Of a DNA stretch of 64,000 nucleotides, positions 12,354-53,336 are shown piece after piece. The stretch's first letter is position 1. Each line of letters begins with the position of its first letter. Under the pieces are notes generated by a model. It was not told the origin of the DNA. It saw only the letters and a program-made list of their open reading frames with translations, and did not search any database. Source of the DNA: Trypanosoma brucei (Eukaryota); contig CH464491.1 in assembly GCA_000002445.1 (NCBI GenBank), positions 5,184,001 to 5,248,000 on the forward strand, given 5' to 3'. The position numbers were made by a program, and so were the translations under genes.

Positions 12354-12700
12354 TTAAAAGTTGTTGAATGCTACAAAAATAGTAAAAGCAGCAGCCATCA
12401 GAGCCGATTTGTTATTTAAAAGTAAACTATAATCACTTCAAGCTTTATTATTCCATTTGAAGTTATCGCCCTTTTGTACAGGCATCCGATGTAATGTGGC
12501 TAGTGCAATTTGCAGTTGCAGTTGTTTTATCCCCGTCTTTCTTTTCTCCTGTTTCGTCTCCTGTATTTTTTTGTCTCCTTCTTGTTTGGCTCCTTCTACA
12601 GCTGTTGTTAGTTTTTGCATTTTCTGAACATAGTAATAAGCCATTGTCTTCCCGAAGTTGTTCTTGTTGCAATGCTTACCAGCTCTAAAAAAACGGCGGT
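12354..12700 (-). pseudogene. VSG 3' fragment (C-terminal domain plus GPI signal only), with its 3'UTR at 12230-12353
   Basis: Minus strand encodes ...CNKNNFGKT..GDNFKWNNK and, in a shifted frame, NNKSALMAAAFTIFVAF*. There is no N-terminal domain. Confidence 0.55.
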
Positions 12701-12720
12701 GCAGCGCCATAGGCCACGCA

Positions 12721-13329
12721 CCAGGGTCTTAAAAAAAAGTTTGAAGCCTGTCCCTACGAAAAGTGCAGAAGCGAAACTCTCGAAAGCTACAAGAGTATAA
12801 TTGTAACAATGTGGGGATTAAATGAATATGAGAAAAATTTAAGCGAAGATGGCTGCCGTCCAAATAAGGGTTAGGGTTTCACCAAAAAGAGAGCTACTGT
12901 GCCACTGAAAAAAAATTAAATTAAAAAATGGGTCGATGTGAAGATGGAAATTTAAGCTGCAGATGTAAACGTGAACAAAAATGTCTGCTGCGTCAATAAG
13001 GGTTAAGGCCACATCTAAAAAAAAAGGACAAAATCATGACGGGTCACTGGTAGTAGAAAACAAGAAAAAATAAAAATAATAACCCTAACCCTAACCCTAA
13101 ACCTAAGCCTGGAAAACTTCCCTAACGTACCTCCTTCCTACCTTTTTTGTTTGCTGTACAAAAAAAATTCAAAAAGAAAAAAAAGGATAAAAATTTTCAG
13201 CTATCAGAAAAAAATTTACAGATTTAGACAGCTTAACAAAAATATTACCGGGATATTTTTACGTGTTAAAATATACCAAACAACAAAATTCTTTAAGAAA
13301 GGGAGGGGGAAAAATTTAAAAAGAAAGGC
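12721..13329. repeat. Interstitial island of degenerate telomere repeats (TTAGGG/CCCTAA), A-rich
   Basis: gggttagggttt at ~12863, ataagggttaaggcc at ~12990, ccctaaccctaaccctaaacctaagcc at 13081-13107. It also has poly-A runs and two ~110-bp degenerate tandem units ending in ataagggtta(g/a)gg. Confidence 0.75.
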
Positions 13330-15684: not shown

Positions 15685-15923
<239 letters not shown>

Positions 15924-21700: not shown

Positions 21701-24028
21701 CGCTATTTCACACGCAGATAAAGCCTGTGTGCGCTGATGACCCTGACGATGTCAAAAGGGAGGCTTCCGAAAAGTGGATTGAACGGCATTTTGCACGGAG
21801 GGGGAAGGAGCCACCGCGGCGAGAGCACTACGAATTGTGGACTGATGGATGCGTGTCCCTCGGTGAGAAGTCCGGAGCAACTGCCCTGCTCTATAGAAAC
21901 AACACGCTGATTTGCGCACCCAAAACTGGAGCAGGGGAACTCTCATGCAGTTACAGAGCGGAATGCTTAGCATTAGAGATAGGACTGCAACGGCTGCTGA
22001 AATGGCTTCCGGCATACAGAAGCACAACGAGCAGGTTGTCCATCTTCTCTGACTCGCTGTCAATGTTAACAGCACTGCAGACAGGCCCCCTAGCCGTAAC
22101 GGACCCAATTCTAAGACGACTATGGAGGCTTCTGTTTCAAGTTCAGAGAAGGAAGATACGTATCCGACTGCAATTTGTGTTTGGCCATTGTGGCGTGAAA
22201 CGGAATGAGGTTTGTGACGAAATGGCCAAAAAGGCCGCAGATTTACCACAGTTGCGAGACACATGGATCCCCAACATCATTGCTTATGCGAAGCGAGTGC
22301 TTAGGTCGGAAGAAGTCTATGAGAACACTCATAGGTTTGGTATCACGGGCAACCACTTTCCAACAAAACCTAAGAAAGAAGAACTGACGAGGGAGGAAGA
22401 AACGGCACTGGCACGCTTTCGGGTTGGGTCCTCAAGACACTATGGCTGGATGTTGCGAAAGATCAACCCGAGTGTGCCTCCACAGTGCCGATGGTGCAAC
22501 CCGCAACATGCAGAGATAGGGCCAACAATACAAACAGCCCTACCTATTGCGACACGCACTCTTCAGAGAACCTCCGAACCGACCAAATGTACGGAATGTG
22601 ATGCCACATACCAATGCCGCTCGAGTGCTGTAACGCACATGGTAAACATGGCTTTGTGCGAGCTGATGCCCTCAGGAGGATCAAATACGGCGATGCAACA
22701 CCTGCAGTGGACATCCCCCCGGAGTCCCCTCCAGTGGTGGCGATCGTTCCTCTACCATTCGAGCACACGAGTCCAGATGAGACCGCAGGTGCTTCATTGT
22801 ACCCTCTGTACCTCCAAATTCGCAGTGCCAGGCCGACTATTACACCACCTTAGAACAATACATGGCATAGGCAGCGGTAGTTTGCCGCGTGAAAAGGGGG
22901 CGAGAGAACGAGGACTCAGTGCAAGGAGATGGTAGAGCTCCAGCAGCGCCAGCCTCTCAGGATACACGGAAGCTGCCGTTTCAATGTGACCTGTGCGAGC
23001 CGAGCTTCGGTACACGTTCTTCCCTGTCACTACACAAAAAATTCAAACATAAGAGCATAGTGACGGAGGACGGTACCGTGGTGGTGGTGCAACTCCCTCG
23101 TAAGCGTGCCCGTGAGGGAAACGTTGACGTCCCGGGGAAGGGCGAGGTGCAGTGTGGTGTGTGCCAAAAAGTGCTCAGTTGCAGGGACTCCCTCATCCGA
23201 CACTGTAAGGCTTTCCACAAAGGTGAGGGAGTCGAGCTTAAATGCAGCAAAAGCACAAAATTGTGTGCCACTGATTCCCCGCATACAAACACATACATGT
23301 ACATCCATCTTGGTGTGCCCGACATGCGGAAGGCAGTGTGCTAGCAAAACTGGCCTCACCCTACATCAAAAGAAGATGCACGGTATGAAGGTAGAGCGCG
23401 CTGTTACCAGCCAACGCGGCGAATGCGAAGAAACGTCGCTGCACTTGATGAGCTGTCCCGGTTTGAAGGAGTTACGTGTCAGGTTTGCGGTAGAAGGTGA
23501 GTGTGTGCAGGATGTATGTTTCTCTAAAAGGCTGGCGCAGTTTCTCATTGCGGTTGAACGGAGCCGGCCACAGGTGAAGTCCTCACCTAAGGTAACAGTC
23601 ATACAACCCACTCTCCCTTCTGCAACTTCCCCCCTTATTGCCGAGTGTGGAGCTAGCAGGAAAAGCACCGGACGCAGGAATAGTCCAGACACCCTTAGAG
23701 ACAGAGGAGGTATGCAGTCAACAAGCAACAGAAACAGAAAGAGGGGGAGAGAATAATAAACGAATAACAAAAATCAAAACAAAAGGATTGGTAATTGACA
23801 TCTTTGAGAGAGTCCGGGGTGGGGGGTTTCTCGCCCCATCTGCTGTATTCCGTTCAACTTCGGAGCTACAATAAAAAATTATAGAGAGTGTGTTAGGGTG
23901 AATAAAAAAGGGAGACTCTGCCACAGTCGCCAGACCGATAGCATATCAGTGCTCTACGGTGATGGCTGATGGCCGCGCCAGTGGGGGGAAACTCCCACGA
24001 AGGCACGAAGAAAATTCCAAAAAAAAAA
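18764..24028 (+). mobile_element. ingi non-LTR retrotransposon, full-length but degenerate (copy 1)
   Basis: Starts with the RIME/ingi 5' end ccctcgcgatgccggccacctcaacgtggtgccagggtccagtac and ends in poly(A) at 24019-24028. Collinear with copy 2 (48352-53607) at a few percent divergence. The ORF is broken into five pieces (18988-19515, 19582-21576, 21622-22935, 22889-23344, 23106-23756) by a GAA>TAA change at 21574, a 4-bp deletion at ~22650, a +1 insertion at ~22757 and a 10-bp insertion at ~23300. Confidence 0.9.
19003..19026 (+). other. 2A-like peptide motif DVEENPGP in the ingi ORF (copy 1)
   Basis: gatgtggaagagaatcccggaccg encodes DVEENPGP, matching the D(V/I)ExNPGP viral 2A consensus. 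Confidence 0.7.
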
Positions 24029-35121: not shown

Positions 35122-36299
35122 TTAAGTCTCTGCGCGGCTACTGCTATGTTTTCCTTTGGGGAAAGACAGAATGGCTAGACGCACTCGTTCGCTATTGATG
35201 ATATAAGTTATGTTCACCTTACATAGTCTTGGGCCTTTGTGTCGGCTGGCGTCTTTCAGTTACAATGGCTTGCTTGTTGATTGTGCTGTTTGCTTTGTGT
35301 CTGTGTTATAGTTGCCTTGGGCACCGGTCTCTGTCGACAGGTCACCGTTGTCTAAGCTGCACATCGAATAGGTGTCTGCTCATTTACTGCAAAATGTTAG
35401 CGGCGCTGTCCTGTCACTGCAGTTCTTTCAACCTCGTGACGGGTAAAAAACGTTTTTCAAGTTCATCTTCACATGTATGGGAGCGTCGCTTAGATTTCAC
35501 TTTTGATTTCTATTTCTAAACAGTCTGTTATTAATGTTTTCCTAATTCCTCTCAGAACCTATTGCACAAATTTACTGTTCATATGTTAACGATCATTATG
35601 TTAAATTTTGAAAATAATTTATACATTTCTGTACACAAAAATTCAACGTTTATGTTTTGTTATTGCTTCTACATTGCGGCTAACATTGACCACATGATAA
35701 AGTTATAACAAAGTAAAGATTGGGATTTTCACGGATGCGATTCGTCTACTGTTTCTGTATTAGACTTTGTTTCTCCGCTACTTGTAACCTGTGCTTAAGA
35801 CTAAGTAAAATGGATCCAGGCATCGCTTTTTCGCTGACTTTTCTTTTGTTAATACGACTGGTTTGCTCGTATAAACAGCAACTTCTATATGAGTTACTTG
35901 TTCCTTGAAAAGTCTTAGTGACTATGAAATATACAAACAAAAAGTTGGAGGAGTATCTCCGCTGATATTCGCCACAGCACAGAGATCTTCCGTTTTTTAA
36001 TAGACGCGATTTCTTACTCTTTTCTGCTGGTATTATACAGGTGACGAGGTAAGCCTACTTTGTCACAGAGGATCGACCTTGCGTCCTCGTGCTTTCTGCA
36101 TCCTTATTCTTCCGTATGATGATGATATCCACACTAGCTCTACTAAAAACGCTGCATATACTCTATTTCTAGTTTTTTAGACATTTCTCTTCTCCATCCC
36201 CACACATTCATCATTACTAAGTTACTTCCTTCCATTCTAAATGATTTACTGCTTTTAGTGCTTGATATTTTGTCCATGAATTTAGTTTCCAACAGAGCC

Positions 36300-36395
36300 A
36301 TTATTATATTTTTTGCATACTCACACTCACAACACTCTTCTATTATTATTATCATATTATTATTATTATCATTACTGCTCTTATTATTAATCTAA
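36300..36395. repeat. 70-bp repeat upstream of the VSG pseudogene at 33641-35121
   Basis: catactcacactcacaacactcttctattattattatcat... Confidence 0.7.
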
Positions 36396-36636
36396 ATAAT
36401 ATTCACAAGAAAATATAATAAAATAACTTAATCAAATGAGAATTTACGAAGTTTTCGTCTTAAATCACACTAATTTGAACCCATATTCCATTTTTTTACT
36501 TTTTTAAAAAATTCTCAAAGATTTTATAAAAGTGTTAAAATGTAATAATTTTGGAGGTTTCAGAAAAATTTCCGAAATTTAGTGGATTTCATAAATTTCA
36601 TAAAACTGAACGAAAATTCTTATAATACTAAAATCC

Positions 36637-36830
36637 TTAAAACAGAAAGTCCACCAAAGCAGCGGCAATCAGAGCAAACTTTTTAGTTACGAGAAAACTA
36701 GAGGAGCGGCAAGCTGGAGTTACTGGGCCCTGTCACTCGTTGTAGGTAATCCACTCAACAAAAAGCTTTCTTGCCAGCAGGAGCAGTGCCCGGACACCGT
36801 TGAATTTCTCAGGAGTGTCGTAACTAGAGC
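36637..36830 (-). pseudogene. VSG 3' fragment (fragment A) with 3'UTR at 36400-36636
   Basis: Encodes ...EWITYNE*QGPVTPACRSSSFLVTKKFALIAAALVDFLF*. This is closely related, at DNA level too, to the tail at 13330-13480. Confidence 0.6.
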
Positions 36831-36839
36831 AATTTACCC

Positions 36840-38030
36840 GTGATGTTTTATCCCCTTCTTTATTTTCTCCTCCTTTGTTTCCTGAATATTGTGTGGACGG
36901 CTGGCCCACTTTCGAGCGTTGGTTAAGCTGCTGTTGCCTTTGTCAAGTTTAGTCTAGAAAAAAAAGGTTGATCAGCTGCTGCTCGGACGAGGGCTTGGGC
37001 TTGCGTCTAAAAAAAACGGTGTGTCATTATTTAATTAAAGACGGCGGAAAAAAGTAAGTTTGAAACAAAAAAATTGCAGCTCAAAATGCAGAGCTGAAAT
37101 TTACAAAAGAAAAATGAACAAAAACGTAACAAATCGAGGAGATGTTTTAGGCAAAAAATATGAAAATAAAGATGTCTTCAGGATAAACAAAGGTTAGAGT
37201 CCGCACCAAAAAAGAGCCGCTGCATCACTTAAAAAAGAAACATTCCCAACCCTAACCAGGATAACCCTTCCTGGCTTTCTTCTTTTTCGCTTTTGCCAGT
37301 CCAATTGCTGTTCGGGCAGATTATTCAAAAATTTTGAAAAATTAGTTATCCAGCGTAAAACAAAAAAAATAAATTGATGAAAAAACCAAACAAAAAACAA
37401 AATATACTCAAAAATGTCAAAAGATAAAGAAAAAATTTACCCTAATAACCCTAAAAAACCCTAATCTTAAAAATTCCAAATTAACCCGAAAAACAAAAAA
37501 TCCAAAACCAAAAATATCAAAAAATAGGGAAAAACAAATGGAGCCGCTGCAGGTGCTTGAAAAAAGTGGGCGGAATAAAAGTTGATGGTAAAAAATTCTA
37601 AATCCGTCACCCCCTCCCCAAAAAGCCAAAAAAATTAGAAAAAAAAGACGAAAAACACGAAAATCAAGTTTTTTTAAAAATGTAAAAAATTAACAGTTAA
37701 AATTTTAATGTTCGATTCACGGCTGGTAGCGGACAAGGGTTATGGTTTGAATAAAAAAGGAGCGCTGCAGCGGTCAAAAATAAAATTAAAATTATTAAAT
37801 TGTTTTTGCAAAGGAAAATCGGGTAATAAAAAAATTGAAATTAAAAAGGAAAATTAAAAACCTAACCCTAACCTCTCTAACTATTCGTTTTCTTCTACCT
37901 TCTTTGGTTTCTGGAAAAAAATTCGACAAGAAAAAATAAACTTAGATTTAAAAATTTGTTAAAATTGAAAATTGGAAAAAACCTAAAATCCTAACCTTAA
38001 AAGTTCAAAAAAAACCAACAACTAAAAAAT
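36840..38030. repeat. Interstitial island of degenerate telomere repeats, A-rich, ~1.2 kb
   Basis: ccaaccctaacc at ~37245, ccctaataaccctaaaaaaccctaatc at ~37438, cctaaccctaacc at ~37858, cctaaaatcctaacc at ~37981. The unit ggttag(a/g)gtccgc...aaaaagagccgctgcat recurs at ~37190, ~37540 and ~37730, and again at 38705. Confidence 0.75.
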
Positions 38031-38148
38031 GATAATTTTATTCATAAAAATATTTTACACGCGCAGGAAGCCTAAAAAAATAATTATTTCTAGGAGATTG
38101 ATAAATGTGTTAAAATACATTAAATTTTTAACAAGAAAAAAAGGGGAA

Positions 38149-38340
38149 TTAACACATCAAAGCAGTAAAAGCAGCAGCCATACTCAGAGCCAATTTCTTA
38201 TTGACAAGGATACTGAAAGAGAGTCACTCAGGTTTGGGAAGTTTGCCTTCTTTGTCTGTGAAAGTTATCCAACCACATTTACAAGGGGCACAAACTGGCA
38301 GTCCTTCATTCTTGTTTTTCACCAGATGTCTGATCCTGGT
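38149..38340 (-). pseudogene. VSG 3' fragment (fragment B) with short 3'UTR at 38030-38148
   Basis: Encodes [47 protein letters not shown] 16-mer variant gtgttaaaatacatta is at ~38107. Confidence 0.6.
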
Positions 38341-38904
38341 GGCTAGAGAAATTAGTTTGCCAGTCTTTCCCTCACGATTCTTGGCTTGCCTTTTCTAGTT
38401 CTTGTGTCAACTCCTTTTTCAACTCACATTTGTCTCTGACACCGTTAAAAACACACCTCTGACAGTTGAGCGGCTTTAGACGTCTGGCGCCAGCCACAGA
38501 TTGTGCCACTGAGGGTTAATTGCTTATTGTCATAATCTGCTGGTGACGAATATTTCCCTATTTCCTTAATTTTCCCTTTAAAAGGAAATCGTTCTGCGCA
38601 ACGAAATTGCCGCGTGCCAGCTTTAAAAAGAACAGCGTGCAGCGCCTTCGCCTACGTACAAGAGTTTTTTAAAAAACAAATTAAGCACCGCTTCACGTGC
38701 GGAAGGCAAATAAGCGTTAGGGTCCGCGTCAAGAAAGAGCCGCTGCATTACATTAAAGGCATGGCAAATTACAAAAAATACCAAAAAAAAAGGAAAATTA
38801 AAACCTTTAAAAAACTCAATAGATAAAAGGGGAATTTTTGAGCCATCAACAAAAAATTTACAGAATCAGAATTTTTACAAACAAACAAAAAATCTCCGCT
38901 GAAT

Positions 38905-38920
38905 TTAGGTGTTAAAATAT
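38905..38920 (-). promoter_or_regulatory. VSG 3'UTR conserved 16-mer, exact match
   Basis: gtgttaaaatatatca on plus, 39 bp downstream of the stop of the VSG at 38959-40488. Confidence 0.7.
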
Positions 38921-38958
38921 ATCAAACAGCAAATTTTTTACGTATAGGGGAAATTCTT

Positions 38959-40488
38959 TTAGAAAACCATGGCCACAAATGCAGAAACAATCATGGCGAA
39001 TTGTTTGTTTGCTATAATAGAGGAATTTTTGCACTCTTTTCCATCCCATTTACAGTCAGGAGATTTGAAATCTTTCTCCGGTTTCCATTTACATTTATTT
39101 TCTGTTGTTTTAGCCGGTCCTTTTTGAGGTTGTGTTACAGGGACACCATTTGCTGTGGCTTTCGTTGCATTATATTTGCACCTTTTTGTACCATCGCTTT
39201 CTTTTTCATAACTGCATTCATTTTCTTTGTTGCATGTCTCTTCCGTAACTATTTGATTGCATTTGTTAGTCGGCTGAGTCCCCTGGTCGCCTTTGCGGTT
39301 GACATTGTCGCTGCTTGTCTGACCGGCTGTTGGAGGTGCGGTCTTCTGTAGCAGTGCTGCCGCATAGGCTTTATTTTTGGCCACAGCAAGTTGCTGTTCG
39401 AGTGCCGTCGCTTCTGCGATTGCTTTTTCTTGCTGGCGCAGATCGTCGTGGAGAGCTAGCAACTTCTGGGCCCAGGGGATCGCCGCAAAATCCTTGGTGG
39501 GCGTCCCGTCATAGCCAGCGTACTTTATGCATATTCCTTGTGTTTTGTCGCCGTTGCAGCTGCTTCCTGTTTTGAGAGCCCCCATGTAGGCGTTGGCGCC
39601 TACTCTTCTTATTAGGTTTTTGATCTTGGTTATGAGACCCATTAATAGGCTGGATGTTAGGTGCGTTTTTGCTGGGCCGGCGCAGTGCTTTACTATTTCC
39701 TCGAATCCGTCCTTGGTCATGGCGTTGGTGATCGATGTCCACTTGTGAGTATCTGCCTGGTTTCTTGCGCACACTTTTTCTGCTTGGGCGTTGTCTTGGC
39801 CGCAGATACAGTAAATAGCGCCTGCGATTGTTGTTGTTTTAGCTTCGCTGCCTAGCCCGACGCAGATCGCTTCCCTTGCTTGTGTGTTCAGACCGTCATA
39901 GTTTCTCGTTGGCTCAAAGTCTGGTGGTGCCTCTTGTTTGACGCCGTATATAGCTTCGTTTAGCGCCGCTTTAACGGTGGCCGCTGTATGCTTTTTGCCT
40001 ACGTTCTCTTTTTCGGCGATTTGTTGTGTTAGGAATTGTGCTTCTGCTGCTATTTGTGCTACACTTGCTTTGGCCCCTGCCCTTTCTATTGGGTTTAAGG
40101 TTTCGAAGCCGCTGCTTTTTATCTCTGCTGCCGTTCCTTGGTCGGCTAACCTGGCCGCGGCGGCGGCCCACTTTGGCCAACTTTTTTTCCAGTGGCCAGG
40201 GTCTGCTGTGCCTGCCGGAAGCTCTTTTATCCACTCTTTTTTCGCCCCGTCCTTACTGAACCGCTTCTGCCACGACTCATCTGCTAAGCTCATGTTAAGG
40301 GCTAGAACGGCCCCTTCTAGGGCAGCTGTCTGATCCGGAAATTGGTTAATGGTTATGTCCGATCGTGAAAGATCGACAATAGCGCACAATGCACCAAATT
40401 CCTGCTCGTTTGCTCCTGCCGGTATGTTGCCTCTTGCTTGCTCTGCCGTTAGTGCTAAGGCCAGCAGCGCCGTCGCTTGGGGCGTCAT
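38959..40488 (-). CDS. Variant surface glycoprotein (VSG), apparently intact, 509 aa
   Basis: ATG at 40488 with signal MTPQATALLALALTAEQARG. A-type motif EQEFGALCAIVDLS. C-terminus CKWDGKECKNSSIIANKQFAMIVSAFVAMVF*. Confidence 0.85.
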   Translation of the reverse strand: MTPQATALLALALTAEQARGNIPAGANEQEFGALCAIVDLSRSDITINQFPDQTAALEGAVLALNMSLADESWQKRFSKDGAKKEWIKELPAGTADPGHWKKSWPKWAAAAARLADQGTAAEIKSSGFETLNPIERAGAKASVAQIAAEAQFLTQQIAEKENVGKKHTAATVKAALNEAIYGVKQEAPPDFEPTRNYDGLNTQAREAICVGLGSEAKTTTIAGAIYCICGQDNAQAEKVCARNQADTHKWTSITNAMTKDGFEEIVKHCAGPAKTHLTSSLLMGLITKIKNLIRRVGANAYMGALKTGSSCNGDKTQGICIKYAGYDGTPTKDFAAIPWAQKLLALHDDLRQQEKAIAEATALEQQLAVAKNKAYAAALLQKTAPPTAGQTSSDNVNRKGDQGTQPTNKCNQIVTEETCNKENECSYEKESDGTKRCKYNATKATANGVPVTQPQKGPAKTTENKCKWKPEKDFKSPDCKWDGKECKNSSIIANKQFAMIVSAFVAMVF

Positions 40489-41467
40489 TTAGGCTTTCGT
40501 TTTTTGTTTTACCTGCTTTACAGTTGTCCTCGGCGTAGTTGTTCGCCGCTATACTTGGTTAAAAGTTGTTTACTGCCGCTTGCAGGTGCTTTCACCGGAA
40601 CTTTCTTGTGCAATCTACGAAACACAGAAGAAAAGCAATTATGATTGGTCGTGTTTTTAGCTACAAGCCCTATTTAGAGCATCCTGTTCCAAAGCCGTAT
40701 GAAGTTGTTGGTCTGCCATGTCAAATGGCATTTTGGTATCTGCTTAGCTGAAGTTAGTGGCTCGCGTGGTGTTGTCGTCTATGGTCTGGTCGTTGCCGTC
40801 CGCCGCGGTGTTAAGGTGTGTGTGCGGTCCTGCTACGGTGTCTTGTGTTGTTACTTGTATGCACTCGTTTCGAAATGACGATAAATAGTCGGTGGTTACG
40901 TTCCTTCTTATTTTAGTAGTTGTTACTGTCCTTGGGTTTGTGTCTGACACAGTCAGAAAACATCTTTGTCACCTTTTCCCCATCTACAATGTTCCATTCT
41001 CATACCATTAAAAAAAACCACATTCAATCTATCTGTCGCCACAGACTTAGTCTTGTCGATTAAGATAGGAACTTGCCATAAATTTAAAACCCCATTCGGA
41101 ACAATTATCGATAGAGTAGCACATATTCATTTTTGTGGGAAATGTGGTGTAAAATCTCCTCTTCCTATATCATTTTTTACGTGATGAGCTACTACGTATT
41201 CTGTAGTTTTACTCTGTATTTTCTTCCCCTTTTTTCAATCTCTGTCGCTACTTGTACGAATGACATAAAAAAATTATTTAGACTGTTTACTGCATTCTGT
41301 CTATCCATATTGGCCAATCAATTATCTTCTCGTATAATGATTCCCATTGTCACGCTCATTTATGTAAATACTCACGTTCCATCTTCCTCATTATTTAACT
41401 TATGTTACACTATTCCCATTGTTTTAAGTTCTTATATTTTTCTCATCCACTTAGTTTTCGGTGCCAT

Positions 41468-41535
41468 AATCATTATAATATTCGTATATACACTCCAAAA
41501 ACTCCCCTATTATTATCATCACCTTTATTACTATA
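41468..41535. repeat. 70-bp repeat (single unit) upstream of the VSG at 38959-40488
   Basis: cattataatattcgtatatacactccaaaaactcccctattattatcatc. Confidence 0.65.
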
Positions 41536-41823
41536 AATTATAACCGTACCAAGTACCCATAAAGTAAACAAAATAAAGCAAATTGAAAAATTTCCTAGTG
41601 ACACCAATTTTTCATACGTTATCACCCTACAAAGTTTTATCCATAGACCACAGTCATACAAAAAATTAAAAATTTTCAAATTCTCTATATTTACACATTT
41701 TATCAAAAAGTTTTAGAATGTATCAAATCGTATTAAATTTATTTATTTTTATCATAATAGCAAAATTTTGTAAATTTCACAAAATGGAACAAAAACCTTT
41801 TACCAACAATTCTTAAAATTTGA

Positions 41824-43216
41824 TTATTTAATAAAAACTGCAAGCAAAAGAGGGGCCTTGTGAATGACAAATGAATTGCTTCCTGTGGTATTTGTGGTTC
41901 CAGTTTTTTTGTTTTCTCCCACTATTTTTCTTAGGTTTACAAGTTTCTTGTGTTTTTTCCCATCCACACTCTCCTGTGCACGCATCACCCTTTTTGTCAC
42001 TGCATCCTTGGACGCCTTTGAGAGACGGTTCGCCGCTCGCTTGTGGGTCTGTTTCTATCGCCAGTCTTTTGAGTGTCTCCCTTGCTAAAGCGTCAGCAAG
42101 GTCGGTGAAAGTTTCTACGCTTGTCAGCGGCTCTGTCTTTTTTTTGCCGTCGGCGGAGATTTCGGTTTGTTTATTTCCTGGGGTCTCATACACTACTTTG
42201 TTGAAGTTTTTGCCGCCTTCGCCGTATGCTGTGGTGAGCGCCTTCTCTAAGGTTTCGGCCGGGCTTGTCTTCTTTTTTTCGTTGCCCTGTTTTTGCAATA
42301 GGGTCTTTATTGCTAGCCGCTTGAACAGTCCTGTTCCTGCTATGGTACTGTAGTCTGTAATCTTTGCTTCACACGATGTGCTCGTGTCCACTTCTTTTAG
42401 CTTCCTGAGAGCAGCGTTTAGGTTTGTTATATTATCATCAAGAAGCGCAATTTCGTTGCCAAAATCCGCGCTCCTGGTATGCGTGTTTGAATGCCAGGCG
42501 CCTGTTGTGTCTGCTACGGTGGCTGTCGTATGTGTTACGTCAATTTCAATCCAGCCGCCGTTTCTGATCGCTGCGTTATGACAGGTCTTTGGCGACGTGA
42601 CTGACGAACACTTTATTTGCGTCTTCGTCTTTAGCTTGAACTCCTTTATGTCCGGTTCGTCGCCGGCCGTTGTGTCTGTTATGTCGGCTCCCCTCTCTTC
42701 TTCTGTTGGGCCGTCGCAATTGCTTTTATCTACTTTGCCCAGTGTCTTGGTCTTTGCTGCATTTTCTTTAAAGTAGCCACTGCCGTCCGCTGTCAGCTTC
42801 AGTTGAGAAGTCGCTTTCACAAAATGTTGCATTATGGAGTAAGTTTTTCCGACCTTGGCGGCGATCCGTGCTTCCGTGTCAAATTTTTTTTGGGCGTCGT
42901 CCAGTTTTGCCTTGCATTGATCCAAGATGTCTCCGGCTGCCCCTATTACTGGCACCGCTGCTTTAGCAAGAGTCCTGTCGCCGCTTAACGTTGCTATTTG
43001 AAGTTTTAACAGTTGTTTCAAATTATCTTCTGAATTCTGTCGGGCGCTTGCTATGCGTATGTCGTAGTATTTTATTATTTTTTCCAGTCGTTCTTTGCAA
43101 TCGCATGGAGTTGAGCAGGCACCGTTTGTTTTCGCTTCGCTTATGTTTACCTGTACTAGTGTTATCAATATCCATAGCGACACCTCACCTTTATTGATGT
43201 TTCTCTTCACTCTCAT
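41824..43216 (-). pseudogene. VSG with intact 462-aa ORF (41828-43216) and frameshifted Asn-type GPI tail
   Basis: ATG at 43216 (MRVKRNINKGEVSLWILITLVQVNISEA). The tail KKTGTTNTTGSNSFVIHKAPLLLAVFIK* is in another frame ending at ~41824. Confidence 0.7.
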
Positions 43217-44890: not shown

Positions 44891-46339
44891 TTAGAAACCT
44901 AGCAATATAAACAAATCCGCAAGCAAAAGAGGGGCCTCATTAATGACAAATGAGTTGTTTCCTGTGGTATTTGTAGGTTTGGCATCATTTTCCGCTTTCA
45001 CTCCCTCTTTAAGTTTGCATTTGCCATCGCTGTGTTCGCAATCTTTATCTGCTGTACATTTACTTTTTTCTGTTTCTTCTTGGCATTTTTCTGGTGTTGG
45101 TTTAGCTTGTAGGGATGTTTCTTTGCACTCTTTGCTTGTTGGAGCTGTATATCCACTTGCTCCAATTGCTATTGTTATATGATCACTAGTTGTGATAGCG
45201 GTAATCTTGCCTTTGAAGTCTTTGCTTCCTATACTGCAAGAAAAATCAGGTTCTCTTATTTTATTCCATACCTTTTCTTTAAAGTCGCTTTCTTCTTTGC
45301 CGTAGTTTGATTCGATAAAGGTATTGATTACTTTCTGCTGCTCTTTGCTGTCCGTGTCGTATTTTTCGTTCGGGCCTTTTACGACTGCTAGTACACTGCG
45401 CCGTAGTGGCTCATTCGTTTGTGTCGTGGCCGCTTTGTCTAGGCTTGTGTACGTTGCTTTGCAGGGCTTGTTTAGGTTGAAGTTGTATAGACGCCAGTTA
45501 AGGTGGCGCTTGTGGGCTTTGAGATACGTTTTCCCGTTTTCTTCCTCGCTTGCCTTCTCTGGTTGGCTGTGGGCTGATGCTTGCATATCGATCGTGTCTC
45601 TTGTGTCTTCTTCGAGAAATTTCTTGCTTTGAGTCTTGGTTTTGTGCCTTGCCGCTTGTGCCGTGCACGCTTTCCCCTGGCCGTCGCAGTGCCCTAGGCA
45701 AATCTGCCGGTTGCCAGGTGTCGAGTGTTCTTTTAGTTTGAAGAGGGTTAGCGTCTTGAGTGCTGATATGGCTACACCCGTTGCTGCTTTTGCTATGCTG
45801 CCGGCTTCTTTGTTAGTGCACGTATCTCCGTGTATTGTCTCGAATGTCGCCGTATCTTGTACCTTTCCGCCGGCGCTTAACGTGCTTGCTGCCGTTCCTG
45901 CAGACGAAGCCGTTGTAATTTCTGCTAGTTCTGCCACTGCCCAGTTTCTGCCTGCTTGGATATTGGCTGAGCGTGCCGCGTCGGCCGCCGCTTTGTTGCA
46001 TGTTGCGAGTCTTGAAATCAGCTTCTGCTGCTCCGCTAGTACTAGGCCTATCAGCGGGGTCAACGCAGTTGGTTTCGTGTTCCATTGAGGCAGTGCTAGT
46101 GCCGTTTCTAGTTGAAGCAGGTCTGCGTTGGCTTTTGATATTTCGTTGATGAGTTCGCTCCGTTGTTCGTCTATCGAATTTGCTAGCTGCATTATGTAAA
46201 CCGCGGCACTGCAGGCATCTCCCTGTTTGGCTTCTTGGGTGCTTTCTGCGCTGCCGTGTCTTATAATTAGTTGTGCCACCGCTGTGGCTATTAGTAAGGC
46301 TTTTGGCACACTTCGGTTGTCGCTTGCGCGTTGCAGCAT
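44891..46339 (-). CDS. Variant surface glycoprotein (VSG), apparently intact, 482 aa
   Basis: ATG at 46339 with signal-like ALLIATAVAQLIIRHGSAES. Asn-type tail ...KPTNTTGNNSFVINEAPLLLADLFILLGF*. The Asp in the hydrophobic tail is slightly atypical. Confidence 0.75.
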   Translation of the reverse strand: MLQRASDNRSVPKALLIATAVAQLIIRHGSAESTQEAKQGDACSAAVYIMQLANSIDEQRSELINEISKANADLLQLETALALPQWNTKPTALTPLIGLVLAEQQKLISRLATCNKAAADAARSANIQAGRNWAVAELAEITTASSAGTAASTLSAGGKVQDTATFETIHGDTCTNKEAGSIAKAATGVAISALKTLTLFKLKEHSTPGNRQICLGHCDGQGKACTAQAARHKTKTQSKKFLEEDTRDTIDMQASAHSQPEKASEEENGKTYLKAHKRHLNWRLYNFNLNKPCKATYTSLDKAATTQTNEPLRRSVLAVVKGPNEKYDTDSKEQQKVINTFIESNYGKEESDFKEKVWNKIREPDFSCSIGSKDFKGKITAITTSDHITIAIGASGYTAPTSKECKETSLQAKPTPEKCQEETEKSKCTADKDCEHSDGKCKLKEGVKAENDAKPTNTTGNNSFVINEAPLLLADLFILLGF

Positions 46340-48359: not shown

Positions 48360-51300
48360 ATGCCGGCCACCTCAACGTGGTGCCAGGGTCCAGTACCCCG
48401 TATCATCTGTGGAAGCCAAGAGCCAGCAGCGTTCCTTTCATGGGGAACACTGCTGTGCTCCGGCTACGGCATCATACAGCACAGGGATCAGCAGCGTCTT
48501 GCTGGGACACCGTTTTTCATTTGTCGGTCCCTGGGCACGTGCCAGCGTGCCATCAGCAGTATCATCCGCACTAAGATGCTGCTGTCCGGTGATGTGGAAG
48601 AGAATCCCGGCCCATCGTTGCGCGGGATGCAGTGGAACTGCGCCGGGCTATCTCAAGAAAAGAGATTAGCACACCACAAAACCCTTGTTGATGAGCGGAT
48701 CGCCTTTTGTCTGTTGAGCGAGACAAGGATGACGCCTGGAGAGGCGGCTTGCTTTAGCGTTGCTGGCTACCAACATCACGGAATAGCTCGTAACTTCAAA
48801 GGAGGTGGTGTATCAATACTAGTGAGGGGGGACCTACCAGTCGAGACCGGTATGGCCGTTGTTGGTCGCATTGAACAAGTGCATGCAACAATTCACCTTG
48901 CACGTGGAACGGCGCTGACTGTCACGTCGGCATACATCCCACCAAAACACACCTTCACGGCAACTGACCTAGATACGCTTCTGACAACTGACGGTGCCCA
49001 GCTCATCGGTGCAGACGCTAACGCACACGCGTTGGCATGGGATCGCGCGAGCCCACCAAATACAAGGGGTGAAACCCTCACACAGTGGTGCATTGACAAT
49101 TAGTTTCTGGTCTGCAACACTGGTGAGTGCACCAGGTACGCGCGCCACCACGGGGAGTCCACCCCTGATGTGACACTGTCAAGGAATTGCACAGTGTACA
49201 CGTGGACATCGCTGTATTCTCCCGATAGCGATCACCATCACATATTTTTCGACGTTATCGTTGGAGACGACACAGATGCACTGAGTTGCCCGCGGCTTCG
49301 AAAGCCCATGTACGCATGGCTAAAAGCTGACTGGAGGAATATCCGTCTCAAGGTTGACGAGCTCTGCAGGAAAATTAATAGAGAGAAGAACGTCAACACC
49401 CTGGAACAGAAATTGAGCTTCGCCATCCGCATTGCGACGAAGGTCTCCGTCCCCCGTGGCTGCAGAGCAACGGCACCACATTGGACACCTGAGCTCGCGA
49501 AACTCGATGAAGAGATCGCTGGATGCGGACCCTCCCACCGAAGGGAAAAGTTGGTAGCCACGCGTAAGCAGATCCTGGACCGTACCACAAAGAAGAAATG
49601 GAGCACGCTATGCTCCAGACTTGCGGTGTCAGACCGCTGCAGTTGGCACATTGTCAAGAAGGTATATCCGCCACGACCACTAACCACACCGGCGGTACTT
49701 GTTGATAACGCGGCCATCACGGACTACTGTCAAGCTGAGAGGTTCATTAAACTGTACTCGTCCCGCGCAAAAAGGCACCCCGACTCACACCCACCGGCAC
49801 CAATAAAGACGATAGCGAGTGAGTTCAGTCCCATCACGATGGCTGAACTACGGAAATCGATCAAACAACTTCCGAGTGGATCCACAGCCGGACCTAATTG
49901 CTTATACAACGAGGCACTACAACATCTCGGTAGAACAGCGTTGAATGTTGTTCTGAGGCTATTCAATGAGAGCCTACGAACGGGAGTCGTGCCGCCTGCA
50001 TGGAAGACTGGTGTTATCATCCCCATCCTGAAGGCCGGAAAAAAGGCGGAGGACCTCGATTCTTACAGGCCAGTGACGCTCACGAGCTGTCTCTGCAAAG
50101 TCATGGAGCGCATAATTGCCGCGAGGCTTAGAGACACTGTTGAGTCCCAGCTGACGCCGCAGCAATCAGGCTTTCGCCCCGGATGCTCAACGCTCGAACA
50201 ACTCCTGCACGTCCACGCTGCCCTCTGCCTCCCCACGCACCAATCTCGTACGGGTGCTGTATTTGTCGACTACGAGAAGGCATTCGATACAGTAGACCAC
50301 GACAAAATTGCGAGGGAAATGCACAGAATGAAGGTATCACCCCACATTGTGAAGTGGTGCGTATCATTTCTGAGTAACCGAACTGGCAGAGTGAGATTCA
50401 AGGAGAAGCTTTCCAGAAGCAGAACATTTGAGCGAGGAGTGCCACAAGGAACTGTCCTTGGCCCAATCATGTTCATTATTGTCATGAACTCGTTGAGCCA
50501 ACGCCTTGCAGAAGTGCCGTTACTGCAGCACGGATTCTTTGCAGACGACCTGACGCTACTTGCGAGGCACACAGAGAGGGATGTCATCAACCACACACTA
50601 CAATGCGGTCTAAACGTGGTGTTACGGTGGTCAAAAGAGTACTTCATGTCTGTCAACGTAGCGAAAACAAAGTGCACACTCTTCGGGTGTATAGAGCGTC
50701 ACCCCCTTACATTACAACTGGACGGCGAAAGAATAGGAGCTGACAGGACACCGAAGCTTCTAGGAGTAACATTCCAGAGTCTGCAAGGGATGGCAACACA
50801 TGCGGCCAAAACGAGACGCAAGATGGATTTCAGACTACTGCAGATAGCAGCCATCTCAGCTTCTACATGGGGGCTAAGACGACAAGTACTGAGAGCTTTT
50901 TATCTAGCACTCGTACAGGCACACACCATGTATGGCATTGAGGTATGGTACTGGGACGCTTCGGAACGAAGTCGCGACCTCCTTGCATCAGCACAACACA
51001 AAGCCAGTCGCATCATAGCCGGCATACCACATGGGACGCGCAAAGAGGACTCTCTGCTGGAAGCAAACCTCCTGCCACTCAAGACGACCACTCTTGTGCG
51101 CAGCATGAAATTCATGCTGATGTGTGAGTCACGAGGCGGATGTTTGCGGCGCAGTGCTGAAGAAGTATACCACAGCAAACACCCAGTCAGAGTCTTACAT
51201 TCCCGCATCATGCTGTCCTACCCCCACCTCCGCATTGAGCCACGCGAGCAACCACTAGAGACATCGACGCTCCGCCACAGCTGCCGACCGCTATTTCACA

Positions 51301-53336
51301 CGCAGATAAAGCCTGTGTGCGCTGATGACCCTGACGATGTCAAAAGCGAGGCTTCCGAAAAGTGGATTGCACGGCATTTTGCACGGAGGGGGAAGGAGCC
51401 ACAGCGGCGAGAGCACTACGAATTGTGGACTGATGGATGCGTGTCCCTCGGTGAGAAGTCCGGAGCAACTGCCCTGCTCTATAGAAACAACACGCTGATT
51501 TGCGCACCCAAAACTGGAGCAGGGGAACTCTCATGCAGTTACAGAGCGGAATGCGTAGCATTAGAGATAGGACTGCAACGGCTGCTGAAATGGCTTCCGG
51601 CATACAGAAGCACAACGAGCAGGTTGTCCATCTTCTCTGACTCGCTGTCAATGTTAACAGAACTGCAGACAGGCCCCCTAGCCGTAACGGACCCAATTCT
51701 AAGACGACTATGGAGGCTTCTGCTTCAAGTTCAGAGAAGGAAGATACGTATCCGACTGCAATTTGTGTTTGGCCATTGTGGCGTGAAACGGAATGAGGTT
51801 TGCGATGACATGGCCAAAAAGGCCGCTGATTTACCACAGTTGCGAAATACATGGATCCCCGACATCATTGCTTATGCGAAGCGAGTGCTTAGGTCGGAAG
51901 AAGTCTATGAGAACACTCATAGGTTTGGTATCACGGGCAACCACTTTCCAACAAAACCTAAGAAAGAAGAACTGACGAGGGAGGAAGAAACGGCACTGGC
52001 ACGCTTTCGGGTTGGATCTTCAAGACACTATGGATGGATGTTGCGAAAGATCAACCCGAGTGTGCCTCCACAGTGCCGATGGTGTAACCCGCAACATGCA
52101 GCGATAGGGCCAACAATACGAATGCCCCCAACTGTTGCGACACGCACTCTTCAGAGAACCTCCGAACCGACCAAATGTACGGAGTGTGATGCCACATACC
52201 AATGCCGCTCGAGTTCTGTAACGCACATGGTAAACAAACACGGCTTTGTGCGAGCTGATGCCCTCAGGAGGATCAAATACGGCGATGCAACACCTGCAGT
52301 GGACATCCCCCCGGAGTCCCCTCCAGTGGTGGCGATCGTTCCTCTACCATCGAGCACACGAGTCCCGATGAGACTGCAGCTGCTTCATTGTACCCTCTGT
52401 ACCTCCAAATTCGCAGTGCCAGGCCGACTATTACACCACCTTAGAACAATACATGGCATAGGCAGCGGTAGTTGCCGCGTGAAAAGGGGTCGAGAGAACG
52501 AAGACTCATTGCAAGGAGATGGTAGAGCCCCAGCAGCGCTAGCCCCTCAGGATACACGGAAGCTGCCGTTTCAATGTGACCTGTGCGAGCCGAGCTTCGG
52601 TACACGTTCTTCCCTGTCACTACACAAGAAATTCAAACATAAGAGCATAGTGACGGAGGACGGTACCGTGGTGTTGGTGCAATTCCCTCGTAAGCGTGCC
52701 CGTGAGGGAAACGTTGACGTCCCGGGGAAGGGCGAGGTGCAGTGTGGTGTGTGCCAAAAAGTGCTCAGTTGCAGGGACTCCCTCATCCGACACTGTAAGG
52801 CTTTCCACAAAGGTGAGGGAGTGGAGCTTAAATGCAGCAAAAGCACAAAATTGTGTGCCACTGATTCCCCGCATACAAACGCATCCATCTTGGTGTGCCC
52901 GACATGCGGAAGGCAGTGTGCTAGCAAAACTGGCCTCACCCTACATCAAAAGAAGATGCACGGTATGAAGGTAGAGCGCGCTGTTACCAGCCAACGCGGC
53001 GACTGCGAAGAAACGTCACTGCACCTGATGAGCTGTCCCGGTTTGAAGGAGTTACGTGTCAGGTTTGCGGTAGAAGGTGTGTGTGTGCAGGATGTATGTT
53101 TCTCTAAAAGGCTGGCGCAGTTTCTCATTGCGGTTGAACGGAGCCGGCCGCAGGTGAAGTCCTCACCTAATGTAACAGTCATACAACCCACTCTCCCTTC
53201 TGCAACTTCCCCCCTTATTGCCGAGTGTGGAGCTAGCAGGAAAAGCACCGGACGCAGGAATAGTCCAGACACCCTCAGAGACAGAGGAGGTATGCAGTCA
53301 ACAAGCAACAGAAACAGAAAGAGGGGGAGAGAATAA
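48360..53336 (+). CDS. ingi polyprotein: AP-endonuclease, 2A-like motif, reverse transcriptase, RNase H, three C2H2 zinc fingers; one internal in-frame TAG
   Basis: ORFs 48360-49103 and 49170-53336 are in the same frame, and the codons at 49104-49169 contain no stop. RT motifs FVDYEKAFDTVDHDKI and FADD. RNase H-like region ELWTDGC...ECVALEIGL...FSDSLS. Fingers FQCDLCEPSFGTRSSLSLHKKFKHK, QCGVCQKVLSCRDSLIRHCKAFHK and CPTCGRQCASKTGLTLHQKKMHG. Confidence 0.85.
48591..48614 (+). other. 2A-like peptide motif DVEENPGP (copy 2)
   Basis: gatgtggaagagaatcccggccca, in frame within the ingi ORF. Confidence 0.7.

What the first reader, a model, noticed from the sequence alone, without database searches (positions are those of the whole stretch)
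36637..38740. Second interstitial telomere-repeat island (1.2 kb) sandwiched between VSG 3' fragments, with a recurring composite unit ggttagggtccgc...aaaaagagccgctgcat
Between the 70-bp repeat at 36300-36395 and the intact VSG at 38959-40488 there is no complete gene. The layout is: 3'UTR plus C-terminal fragment A (36637-36830), a 1.2-kb island of degenerate CCCTAA/TTAGGG with long A runs, 3'UTR plus fragment B (38149-38340), a further degenerate GPI-signal remnant (~38480-38540), and another copy of the composite unit (gcgttagggtccgcgtcaagaaagagccgctgcattac at ~38700). The composite unit is one or two telomere hexamers fused to a GC-rich ~20-mer. It appears at least four times here and once, diverged, in island 1 at ~12866-12905. 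This suggests a distinct telomere-associated repeat family, not random hexamers. The arrangement mirrors island 1 (VSG 3' end, then island, then VSG 3' fragment, then 70-bp repeat). That points to a reproducible recombination or telomere-healing outcome.
Basis: seen in the sequence. Interest (0 to 1): 0.65.

Follow-up and report, generated by a model that had tools for sequence, protein, structure and literature searches.

The report
Relic chromosome-end flank inside VSG array
Inside a silent surface-antigen (VSG) gene array of Trypanosoma brucei lies a decayed copy of the kind of sequence expected between a chromosome-end VSG gene and the telomere, joined to leftover VSG gene ends; it is most likely a recombination scar, not a new kind of element.

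Summary
The window is a T. b. brucei TREU927 subtelomeric VSG array with the genes on the minus strand. The label "1.2-kb telomere-repeat island" is overstated. Only about 6% of 36840-38148 is telomere-like, in four or five patches of 14-19 nt. The rest is A-rich spacer (47% A).

Telomere-like 12-mers occur at only five places in the 64 kb. All five lie in the two islands (chance about 0.4 per strand).

The composite unit is a real element of about 85 nt. There are three full copies here, two in island 1, and several partial cores, all on one strand. Cross-island E-values are about 1e-6. Its hexamers point the opposite way to the main tract.

Unit, A-rich spacer, CCCTAA tract and pyrimidine-rich block form one module. 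It occurs four times; three copies directly follow a VSG 3'UTR, and 3 of the 18 VSG 3' ends in the window carry one. The tract lies 208-275 nt past the stop codon in the telomere-correct orientation.

Best reading: internalised telomere-proximal VSG flanks ('TTAGGG-like' repeats 3' of telomeric VSGs are already published), joined distally to truncated VSG 3' ends. I could not obtain genuine T. brucei telomere sequence, so the telomeric origin is inferred. Interest is modest.

The parts
36300..36395 (-). 70-bp repeat belonging to the next VSG cassette downstream; it marks the distal limit of the structure
   Evidence: ATT/ATC run at 36356-36373 plus the GTGTTGTGAGTGTG-type motif read from the sequence
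36461..36636 (-). 3'UTR of VSG fragment A, with a 16-mer-like element at 36532
   Evidence: 3'UTR profile matches 36620-36461 at E 2.8e-21; 16-mer scan
36637..36910 (-). VSG fragment A: a 5'-truncated C-terminal domain plus GPI signal (...SSSFLVTKKFALIAAALVDFLF*)
   Evidence: Tail profile E 2.1e-19; translations; ORF 36733-36909
36975..37027 (-). Weak, degenerate unit copy at the boundary between the A-rich region and fragment A
   Evidence: Unit profile E 0.017; island-1 profile E 0.079
37030..37855 (-). A-rich spacer region ('X'): 47% A on the + strand, 33 runs of A5 or longer, the most A-rich stretch of the window. No recognisable VSG tail, 3'UTR, ORF or RNA family.
37156..37241 (-). Composite unit, full copy. 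On the + strand it reads GGTTAGAGTCCGCACCAAAAAAGAGCCGCTGCAT.
   Evidence: E 1.5e-17; found by the island-1-only profile at E 7e-6
37244..37330 (-). Short CCCTAA-type patch (37245-37257) plus pyrimidine-rich block; the second half of module copy M2
37457..37470 (-). Degenerate CCCTAA-type patch. Exact CCCTAA hexamers lie nearby at 37440, 37449 and 37459.
37536..37562 (-). Partial unit, GC-rich core only (GGAGCCGCTGCAG)
   Evidence: island-2 profile E 0.11
37699..37789 (-). Composite unit, full copy. On the + strand it reads GGGTTATGGTTTGAATAAAAAAGGAGCGCTGCAGCGG.
   Evidence: (E 2.2e-13)
37855..37876 (-). Best telomere-like tract of island 2: AACCTAACCCTAACCT on the + strand, so TTAGGG on the VSG sense strand. 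It lies 275 nt downstream of the fragment B stop codon.
   Evidence: Passes the 18-mer test with 3 or fewer mismatches; 0.05 expected per window
37877..37936 (-). Pyrimidine-rich block (purine-rich on the gene strand) between the 3'UTR and the tract; homologous to 13138-13182
   Evidence: blastn 80% over 45 nt; module profile hits 13047-13196 at E 6e-5; alignment A2
38041..38148 (-). 3'UTR of VSG fragment B, with the 16-mer at 38107
   Evidence: E 0.004
38149..38540 (-). VSG fragment B: a decayed C-terminal domain plus GPI signal (...[21 protein letters not shown])
   Evidence: (E 2.7e-18)
38612..38676 (-). 60-nt junction element at the boundary between the module and fragment B; homologous to 12679-12738
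   Evidence: blastn 77% over 61 nt; profile E 2e-5; local score 48 against a shuffle maximum of 28, with no homology on either side
38674..38766 (-). Composite unit, full copy. On the + strand it reads GCGTTAGGGTCCGCGTCAAGAAAGAGCCGCTGCAT. It starts 193 nt downstream of the intact VSG.
   Evidence: E 9e-17
38797..38958 (-). 3'UTR of the intact VSG, with the exact 16-mer at 38909
   Evidence: E 1.3e-9
38959..40488 (-). Intact VSG gene, 509 aa, annotated 'atypical'
   Evidence: EAN80685/XP_829797, 100% identical
12679..13196 (-). Island 1, the homologous structure. Junction 12679-12738; units 12831-12915 and 12963-13044; TTAGGG-type tract 13079-13106; pyrimidine-rich block 13107-13196. Flanked by a VSG 3' fragment (12354-12678) and the 3'UTR of VSG 13398-14930.

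Best explanation
The region is a non-coding recombination relic.

It holds two stacked copies (three with island 1) of the sequence that normally lies between a telomere-proximal VSG gene and the terminal TTAGGG array. Read on the VSG sense strand, each copy runs: VSG 3' end, 3'UTR, a purine-rich block, a short TTAGGG-like tract, T-rich spacer, and one or more units of about 85 nt. Each unit carries a GC-rich core next to an inverted CCCTAACCC.

Each flank is joined distally to a 5'-truncated VSG C-terminal domain with its own 3'UTR. The 70-bp repeat of the next cassette follows.

Inferred history: a telomeric VSG was moved or copied into the array together with its flank. Alternatively, a former chromosome end was extended by copying array sequence. 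In both cases the distal joint fell in or next to the 3' end of a resident VSG gene, which is the usual downstream limit of VSG recombination. Later duplication and decay produced the stacked, diverged copies.

No present-day function is implied. At most, the short TTAGGG tracts might act as seeds for telomere healing or as weak sites for telomere-binding proteins.

Shown: the anatomy, the orientations, the restriction to the islands, and the homology between modules. Inferred: the telomeric origin and the mechanism of internalisation.
For: 1. Telomere-like 12-mers with at most 1 mismatch occur at only 5 places in 64 kb. All 5 are in the two islands, against 0.3-0.5 expected per strand. The 18-mer test leaves 13074-13112 and 37855-37876, against 0.05 expected.

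2. The tracts next to the 3'UTRs read TTAGGG on the VSG sense strand. That is the orientation of a chromosome end lying downstream of a VSG transcribed toward the telomere (established knowledge).

3. The tract lies about 208 nt past the true tail of VSG 13398 and 275 nt past fragment B. In 17 sequenced expression-site clones the VSG-to-telomere distance was 200-1590 nt (PMC2567434).

4. Hall et al. [quoted passage not shown]

5. Of the 18 VSG 3' ends that the tail and UTR profiles detect, only 3 are followed by this module. The others run into 70-bp repeats or ordinary spacer.

6. Four module copies align block for block (A2). Cross-island profile hits reach E 2.6e-6, 7e-6 and 6e-5.

7. Every island ends distally in a truncated VSG C-terminal domain with its 3'UTR, followed by a 70-bp repeat.

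8. Nothing in the region looks functional: no ORF longer than 70 aa in the A-rich spacer, no credible Rfam match, no tandem periodicity.
Against: - No genuine T. brucei telomere-proximal sequence could be retrieved. So it is not shown that the unit, the purine-rich block or the junction element occur next to real telomeres. The link rests on orientation, distance and a one-line literature statement about TTAGGG-like repeats.
- The hexamers in the units face the main tract head to head. A simple 'VSG then telomere' relic does not predict this.
- Module copy M2 (37180-37360) is not preceded by a recognisable 3'UTR or VSG tail.
- Downstream of the intact VSG 38959 there is a unit but no clear TTAGGG tract.
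- The one outside contig available, from T. equiperdum with 3 VSG 3' ends, has no unit. This says little either way.
Confidence: 0.6

Rival explanations
1. Fossil head-to-head fusion of two chromosome ends. The CCCTAA tract (+ strand) with the VSG comes from one end. The inverted units and A-rich spacer come from the subtelomere of another end. From memory only, this second part would resemble the minichromosome type described by Weiden et al. 1991: GC-rich 74-bp repeats separated by about 155 bp of AT-rich DNA.
For: On the + strand the order is GGGTTAGGG-type (inside the units) and then CCCTAA-type, 40-200 nt apart. That is the head-to-head signature of an end-to-end fusion. The units are GC-rich islands of about 85 nt in A-rich DNA, spaced 124-553 nt apart.
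Against: - The head-to-head pair recurs as part of a duplicated module: twice within island 2, once in island 1, and once in degenerate form. It is therefore not a unique fusion point.
- The DNA beyond the units is a VSG 3' fragment in the same orientation as the array, not an inverted subtelomere.
- A-tract helical phasing ('bent DNA') is absent once a proper null is used.
- The Weiden description could not be checked.
Confidence: 0.12
2. Independent telomerase healing at breaks. Double-strand breaks in the array were repeatedly capped with a few TTAGGG repeats and then rejoined or captured, so that each island records a separate healing event.
For: The tracts are short, 13-38 nt. VSG 3' fragments adjoin the islands. 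In vertebrates, interstitial telomeric repeats are known to be inserted at repaired breaks (titles and abstracts listed).
Against: - The tracts are embedded in homologous flanking blocks on both sides in four copies. They were therefore inherited as part of a larger sequence, not added de novo to unrelated break ends.
- The same 60-nt junction element sits at two of the distal boundaries.
Confidence: 0.1
3. The unit is a DNA copy of the telomerase RNA template region plus the RNA sequence just 5' of it. It would be made by read-through past the template boundary during repair, as in the rodent 'TERC-ITS' class.
For: On the + strand the unit reads G-strand repeats followed directly by a fixed 25-mer (GGGTTAGGG-TCCGCACCAAAAAAGAGCCGCTGCAT). 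That is the layout expected from template read-through. The T. brucei template is CCCUAACCCUA (PMC8643685).
Against: - The base 5' of the T. brucei template is reported not to be A (PMC5700094; PMC4229120). The flanking residues are given as U and A (PMC5175330). Four of the five units have A directly 5' of CCCTAACC.
- The units read CCCTAACCCTTA, not CCCTAACCCTA.
- No telomerase RNA family matched.
- The telomerase RNA sequence itself could not be obtained.
Confidence: 0.04
4. The unit is a decayed remnant of the last 50 nt or so of a VSG coding sequence. On the gene strand it can be read as ...SFLSDAAALFWCGL*, which looks like a GPI signal, and the apparent telomere hexamer would be only the stop codon region.
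For: A translation of the 37194-37400 ORF ends in a hydrophobic tail with a TAA stop inside the 'TTAGAG'.
Against: - The VSG-tail profile finds 18 tails but no unit, even at E 10 with filters off.
- The best unit-versus-tail local scores equal those of shuffled units, p 0.28-0.96.
- Two units carry 12-15 nt of telomere-like sequence, more than a stop codon can explain.
Confidence: 0.03
5. Assembly artefact: telomeric reads were wrongly joined into the array.
For: Repetitive subtelomeres are difficult to assemble.
Against: - The tracts are short and degenerate rather than pure repeat.
- There are two separate islands with diverged copies, 65-82% identical, of the same blocks.
- Both sides of each island continue smoothly into ordinary cassette sequence.
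Confidence: 0.02

Closest known systems
Telomere-proximal flank of T. brucei VSG genes: 'TTAGGG-like repeats 3' of telomere-proximal VSGs' (Aline & Stuart 1989, as cited in PMC3708902); VSG-to-telomere interval of 200-1590 nt in expression sites (PMC2567434)
   Same: A short TTAGGG-like tract lies 208-275 nt downstream of a VSG stop codon, in the G-strand orientation on the VSG sense strand, and is followed by AT-rich non-coding DNA.
   Different: Here the flank is internal to an array. It ends in a truncated VSG 3' end and a 70-bp repeat instead of a long terminal TTAGGG array. Whether real telomeric flanks contain the 85-nt unit, the purine-rich block and the junction element was not testable.
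VSG 3' (C-terminal) gene fragments in TREU927 arrays. The statement that about 18% of array VSGs are fragments, mostly C-terminal, is from my memory of Berriman et al. 2005 and was not re-read here.
   Same: Fragments A and B and the island-1 fragment are 5'-truncated C-terminal domains with GPI signal and 3'UTR.
   Different: These three are each joined on their 5' side to the telomere-like module. They are not simply free-standing in the array.
Interstitial telomeric sequences of vertebrates, both the fusion type and the short type inserted at break repair (reviews and papers listed)
   Same: Short, degenerate TTAGGG runs at internal chromosomal sites, with a head-to-head arrangement of hexamers.
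   Different: Here the hexamers are part of a longer conserved module tied to a gene family's 3' end and duplicated with it. There is no evidence of de novo insertion.
T. congolense conserved non-coding elements CNE3 and CNE4, which lie between the telomeric VSG and the telomere (PMC6152948)
   Same: Conserved non-coding blocks of 150-200 bp, in a fixed orientation, downstream of a VSG and close to the telomere. This is analogous to the unit, block and junction elements seen here.
   Different: Different species; sequence similarity was not tested. The T. congolense elements were described at real telomeres, whereas these copies are internal.
Minichromosome subtelomere repeats of T. brucei (Weiden et al. 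1991): a 29-bp telomere-derived repeat and 74-bp GC-rich repeats separated by about 155 bp of bent AT-rich DNA. Recalled from memory only.
   Same: GC-rich units of about 85 nt, containing telomere-derived hexamers and scattered in AT-rich DNA.
   Different: The spacing here is irregular (124-553 nt) and there is no A-tract phasing. The paper and its sequences could not be accessed.

Membership tests
Telomere-proximal VSG 3' flank (Aline & Stuart-type organisation) | Lies directly downstream of a VSG 3'UTR | tested here: met
   Three of the four module copies follow a profile-detected VSG tail and 3'UTR: VSG 13398, fragment B and VSG 38959. Copy M2 does not.
Telomere-proximal VSG 3' flank (Aline & Stuart-type organisation) | TTAGGG-like repeats on the VSG sense strand, a few hundred nt past the stop codon | tested here: met
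   Tracts at 13079-13106 and 37855-37876, 208 and 275 nt from the stop codons, in G-strand orientation on the gene strand. The published range is 200-1590 nt. Not met downstream of VSG 38959, where no clear tract exists.
Telomere-proximal VSG 3' flank (Aline & Stuart-type organisation) | Sequence homology to flanks of VSGs that sit at real telomeres | not testable with these tools
   No T. brucei telomeric DNA was retrievable. The 1989 paper is not held.
Telomere-proximal VSG 3' flank (Aline & Stuart-type organisation) | Continues into the long terminal TTAGGG array | tested here: not met
   The flank ends in a truncated VSG C-terminal domain, a 3'UTR and a 70-bp repeat. It is therefore a relic, not a functioning chromosome end.
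Interstitial telomeric sequence, fusion type | Head-to-head (TTAGGG)n-(CCCTAA)m at a single point, flanked by two inverted subtelomeres | tested here: not met
   Head-to-head hexamers exist, but they recur within a duplicated module. The far flank is in direct orientation, not inverted.
Telomerase-RNA-flanked interstitial repeat (TERC-ITS type) | The sequence next to the repeats matches the telomerase RNA 5' of its template | tested here: inconclusive
   Only the template and hints about its flanking bases were available. Those hints disagree with the unit, which has A rather than a non-A base 5' of the template and an extra T within it. The full RNA sequence was not obtained.
VSG 3'-end gene fragment (for fragments A and B) | Matches the VSG C-terminal/GPI-signal profile and is followed by a 3'UTR with the 16-mer | tested here: met
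   Tail profile E 2e-19 for A and 3e-18 for B. UTR profile E 3e-21 for A and 0.004 for B. 16-mer-like elements at 36532 and 38107.
VSG 3'-end gene fragment (for the composite unit) | Matches the VSG C-terminal/GPI-signal profile | tested here: not met
   No hit at E 10. Pairwise scores equal those of shuffled units.

The most novel reading that the evidence does not exclude
Each island would be a fossil chromosome terminus, so that the VSG array grew outward by repeated capture of new distal sequence onto an old telomeric VSG end. Mapping such islands across complete T. brucei genomes would then give a readable record of how subtelomeric antigen archives expand. The 85-nt unit with its inverted CCCTAACCC would be a previously undescribed, conserved telomere-adjacent element, perhaps a protein-binding or end-protection site.
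Probability: 0.2. Interest if true: 0.55.

Novelty: new member of a known kind. Interest (0 to 1): 0.3.

Why it matters
If the reading is right, short telomere-like tracts and their flanking blocks mark places where telomeric VSG sequence became internal. That gives a simple sequence marker for tracing exchange between chromosome ends and the silent VSG arrays, the process behind antigen-repertoire evolution in trypanosomes.

Such tracts could also seed new telomeres after a break or attract telomere-binding proteins inside arrays. Nothing here shows that either happens.

TTAGGG-like repeats downstream of telomeric VSGs and C-terminal VSG fragments in arrays are both already known. This is therefore a useful annotation detail, not a surprise.

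Tried and rejected
1. Unit as a decayed VSG GPI-signal tail. The idea came from a tempting translation...AAALFWCGL*. Rejected: the VSG-tail profile finds 18 tails and no unit, and pairwise scores equal those of shuffles.

2. A-rich spacer as stacked 3'UTR relics. Rejected: the 3'UTR profile finds nothing inside 37030-37855.

3. Phased A-tracts ('bent DNA', to link with the recalled Weiden 1991 description). An apparent 11.6-bp signal came from a shuffle that broke up the A-runs. With a null that keeps the runs intact, p = 0.49 for island 2 and 0.98 for island 1.

4. Telomerase-RNA read-through copy. Only indirect literature hints were available, and they disagree with the unit. Rfam gave nothing.

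5. Attempts to obtain other T. brucei DNA.
- Exact-protein look-ups failed for the intact VSG, its database twin P0001, VSG MITat 1.2 (P0009) and an ingi ORF.
- Cluster look-ups show the window's VSGs only on the TREU927 record.
- One T. equiperdum contig (L001) was retrieved and has no unit.
- A C-terminal-domain protein search returned only 2 hits and was wasted.

6. Literature.
- No held paper describes interstitial telomere repeats in T. brucei arrays.
- Marcello & Barry 2007, Wickstead 2004, Weiden 1991, Sandhu 2013 and Aline & Stuart 1989 are not held.

7. The near-match GGAGTCGCTGCAT at 46918 lies in ordinary sequence upstream of a VSG and is a chance hit.

8. The CCCTAA at 26641 sits in a normal 70-bp-repeat remnant and is not an island.
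Full report
**Context**

The window is a subtelomeric VSG array of Trypanosoma brucei brucei TREU927. Three intact VSG ORFs are identical to EAN80683, EAN80685 and EAN80686, all on one 5.26-Mb chromosome record. These ORFs are 639-2159, 38959-40488 and 44891-46339.

All VSGs are on the minus strand. The conserved 3'UTR 16-mer TGATATATTTTAACAC and the (TAA)n part of the 70-bp repeats are found on that strand only. Two ingi retroelements lie on the plus strand.

Profiles built from the window's own VSG tails and 3'UTRs detect 18 VSG 3' ends.

**Checking the observation**

- A 70-bp repeat lies at 36300-36395.
- VSG fragment A ends at stop codon 36637. Its coding remnant runs to about 36910 and its 3'UTR lies below it, at 36461-36636.
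- VSG fragment B ends at stop codon 38149. Its coding remnant runs to about 38540 and its 3'UTR is at 38041-38148.
- An intact VSG occupies 38959-40488.
- No complete gene lies between the 70-bp repeat and that VSG.

The description "1.2-kb island of degenerate CCCTAA/TTAGGG" does not hold.
- Exact hexamers are not enriched in the window as a whole.
- An 18-mer test allowing 3-4 mismatches finds only two telomere-like tracts in 64 kb: 13074-13112 and 37855-37876. Block-shuffled sequence gives 0.05 to 0.7 depending on strand and stringency.
- With 12-mers and up to 2 mismatches, about 79 nt (6%) of 36840-38148 is telomere-like.
- The rest is A-rich spacer, 47% A on the + strand with 33 runs of A5 or longer. 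It contains the only 300-nt windows in the whole 64 kb (spanning 37292-37721) with more than 50% A.

What is strongly non-random is the location of the telomere-like sequence. At most 1 mismatch per 12-mer gives five sites in the whole window, and all five are in the two islands. Chance predicts 0.3-0.5 per strand.

The "GPI-signal remnant" at 38480-38540 is not detected by the tail profile.

**The composite unit**

The unit is real. The 50-nt pair 37185-37234 and 38708-38757 is 80-82% identical. A multiple alignment shows about 85 nt of homology among five copies: 12831-12915, 12963-13044, 37156-37241, 37699-37789 and 38674-38766. All five are on the same strand. Partial copies lie at 37536-37562 and 36975-37027.

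The cross-island relationship holds without circularity.
- A profile built only from island-2 copies has 12836-12914 as its best outside hit, at E 2.6e-6.
- A profile built only from island-1 copies has 37164-37236 as its best outside hit, at E 7e-6.
- The next-best hits of both profiles are again inside the islands.
- No credible copy (E below 0.5) exists anywhere else in the 64 kb.

The hexamers in the unit (GGGTTAGGG on the + strand) point the opposite way to the main tracts (CCCTAA on the + strand).

**The unit is one block of a larger module**

Four stretches align block for block: 12985-13215, 37180-37360, 37730-37960 and 38703-38870 (A2). On the + strand the order of blocks is:
- the unit;
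- a variable A-rich spacer;
- a CCCTAA tract;
- a pyrimidine-rich block;
- an A-rich stretch that runs into a VSG 3'UTR.

A profile of the island-2 modules finds the tract-plus-block part of island 1 at E 6e-5. blastn had already paired 37895-37936 with 13138-13182.

Three of the four modules directly follow a profile-detected VSG 3' end.
- The frameshifted true tail of VSG 13398-14930, near 13314.
- Fragment B.
- The intact VSG 38959. In this copy the tract has decayed to little more than 'aaaaccttta'.

Only these 3 of the 18 VSG 3' ends carry the module. The others run into 70-bp repeats or ordinary spacer.

On the far side, each island abuts a 5'-truncated VSG C-terminal domain. In two of the three cases a discrete 60-nt junction element sits at that boundary: 12679-12738 and 38617-38676. 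The local alignment score is 48, against a shuffle maximum of 28. The homology does not extend into the VSG fragment or into the spacer.

**Interpretation**

On the VSG sense strand the tract reads TTAGGG and lies 208-275 nt past the stop codon. This is the orientation expected if a chromosome end once lay downstream of that VSG. In general knowledge, the G-rich strand runs 5' to 3' toward the end, and telomeric VSGs are transcribed toward the telomere.

The distance falls within the 200-1590 nt measured between VSG and telomere repeats in 17 sequenced expression-site clones (PMC2567434). [quoted passage not shown] T. congolense offers a parallel: conserved non-coding elements in fixed orientation between VSG and telomere (PMC6152948).

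The best-supported reading is therefore that the islands are internalised, decayed copies of the telomere-proximal VSG flank, each joined to a leftover VSG 3' end. The 3' end of the VSG gene is the usual downstream limit of VSG recombination.

I could not decide how the joining happened. One possibility is that a telomeric VSG was copied into the array together with its flank. The other is that an old chromosome end was extended by copying array sequence. The shared junction element and block order suggest a conserved or commonly inherited module. Independent healing events fit them less well.

**Rivals**

*Head-to-head telomere fusion.* This fits the opposed hexamers. Against it, the opposed pair recurs inside a duplicated module, and the far flank is not inverted.

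*De novo telomerase healing at breaks.* This fits the short tract length. Against it, homologous blocks flank the tract on both sides in all copies.

*A copy of the telomerase RNA template region.* This was attractive because the unit reads G-strand repeats followed by a fixed 25-mer. The published template is CCCUAACCCUA, with a non-A base on its 5' side. The units instead read A-CCCTAACCCTTA.

*A decayed VSG tail.* This was my own early idea. It failed both a profile test and a shuffle test.

*Stacked 3'UTRs in the spacer.* Not found.

*A-tract phasing.* Not real.

*RNA family.* No RNA family matches convincingly; the best hit has E 0.4.

**Limits**

The key test is whether the unit, the block and the junction element occur at genuine T. 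brucei telomeres and nowhere else. It could not be run.
- All DNA collections open to pattern search are non-trypanosome.
- Exact-protein look-ups failed for the window VSG, its database twin, VSG MITat 1.2 and an ingi ORF.
- The only outside contig, 9 kb from T. equiperdum with 3 VSG 3' ends, has no unit.
- The older papers that describe telomere-adjacent sequence are not held.

**Verdict**

The feature is real and non-random, but it is mislabelled as a telomere-repeat island. It is most likely a relic of a known kind of sequence, the telomere-proximal VSG flank, sitting in a new internal position next to known VSG 3' fragments.

Confidence in this reading is about 0.6. Novelty: new member of a known kind. 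Interest: about 0.3.

Noticed in passing
window 13291-13398: The ORF 13398-14930 ends early. The recognisable VSG tail (...VSAFAAFLF*, stop near 13314) lies downstream and out of frame. This 'VSG' is therefore a frameshifted pseudogene at its 3' end (tail profile hit 13394-13291; sequence).
   Followed up: partly
window 18988-23756 and 48360-53336 (+ strand): Two ingi-type retroelements lie opposite in orientation to the VSGs. The first is broken into several ORFs. The second carries a nearly intact 1388-aa ORF. The second abuts a VSG C-terminal fragment whose stop codon is at 48256.
   Followed up: no
window 15753-15920 and 61831-61969: Unusually long pure (ATT)n runs, 168 nt and about 140 nt, within 70-bp repeat regions. 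The other cassettes have only 15-70 nt.
   Followed up: no
window 40489-41700: The cassette upstream of the intact VSG 38959-40488 has only a vestigial 70-bp repeat (about 41500-41530, 'cctattattatcatcacc'). The 3'UTR of the preceding VSG (41828-43216) has a poor 16-mer.
   Followed up: no
window 36118-36219 (- strand): Weak C/D-box snoRNA-like match (snosnR64, 23.9 bits against a gathering score of 38, E 0.4), just beyond the 70-bp repeat. Probably chance.
   Followed up: no
window 12679-12738 and 38617-38676: The 60-nt junction element contains a core (AAAAAACGGCGGTGCAGCGCC / AAAAAGAACAGCGTGCAGCGCC) that resembles the unit's core AAAAAAGAGCCGCTGCA. It may be a diverged, rearranged unit, but the unit profile does not detect it.
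   Followed up: partly
L001 (T. equiperdum OVI contig CZPT02001321.1): This 9-kb contig has three VSG 3' ends by the tail profile (about 2190, 5616 and 8606) but only two called VSG genes. An uncalled VSG fragment therefore lies near 2190-2310.
   Followed up: no
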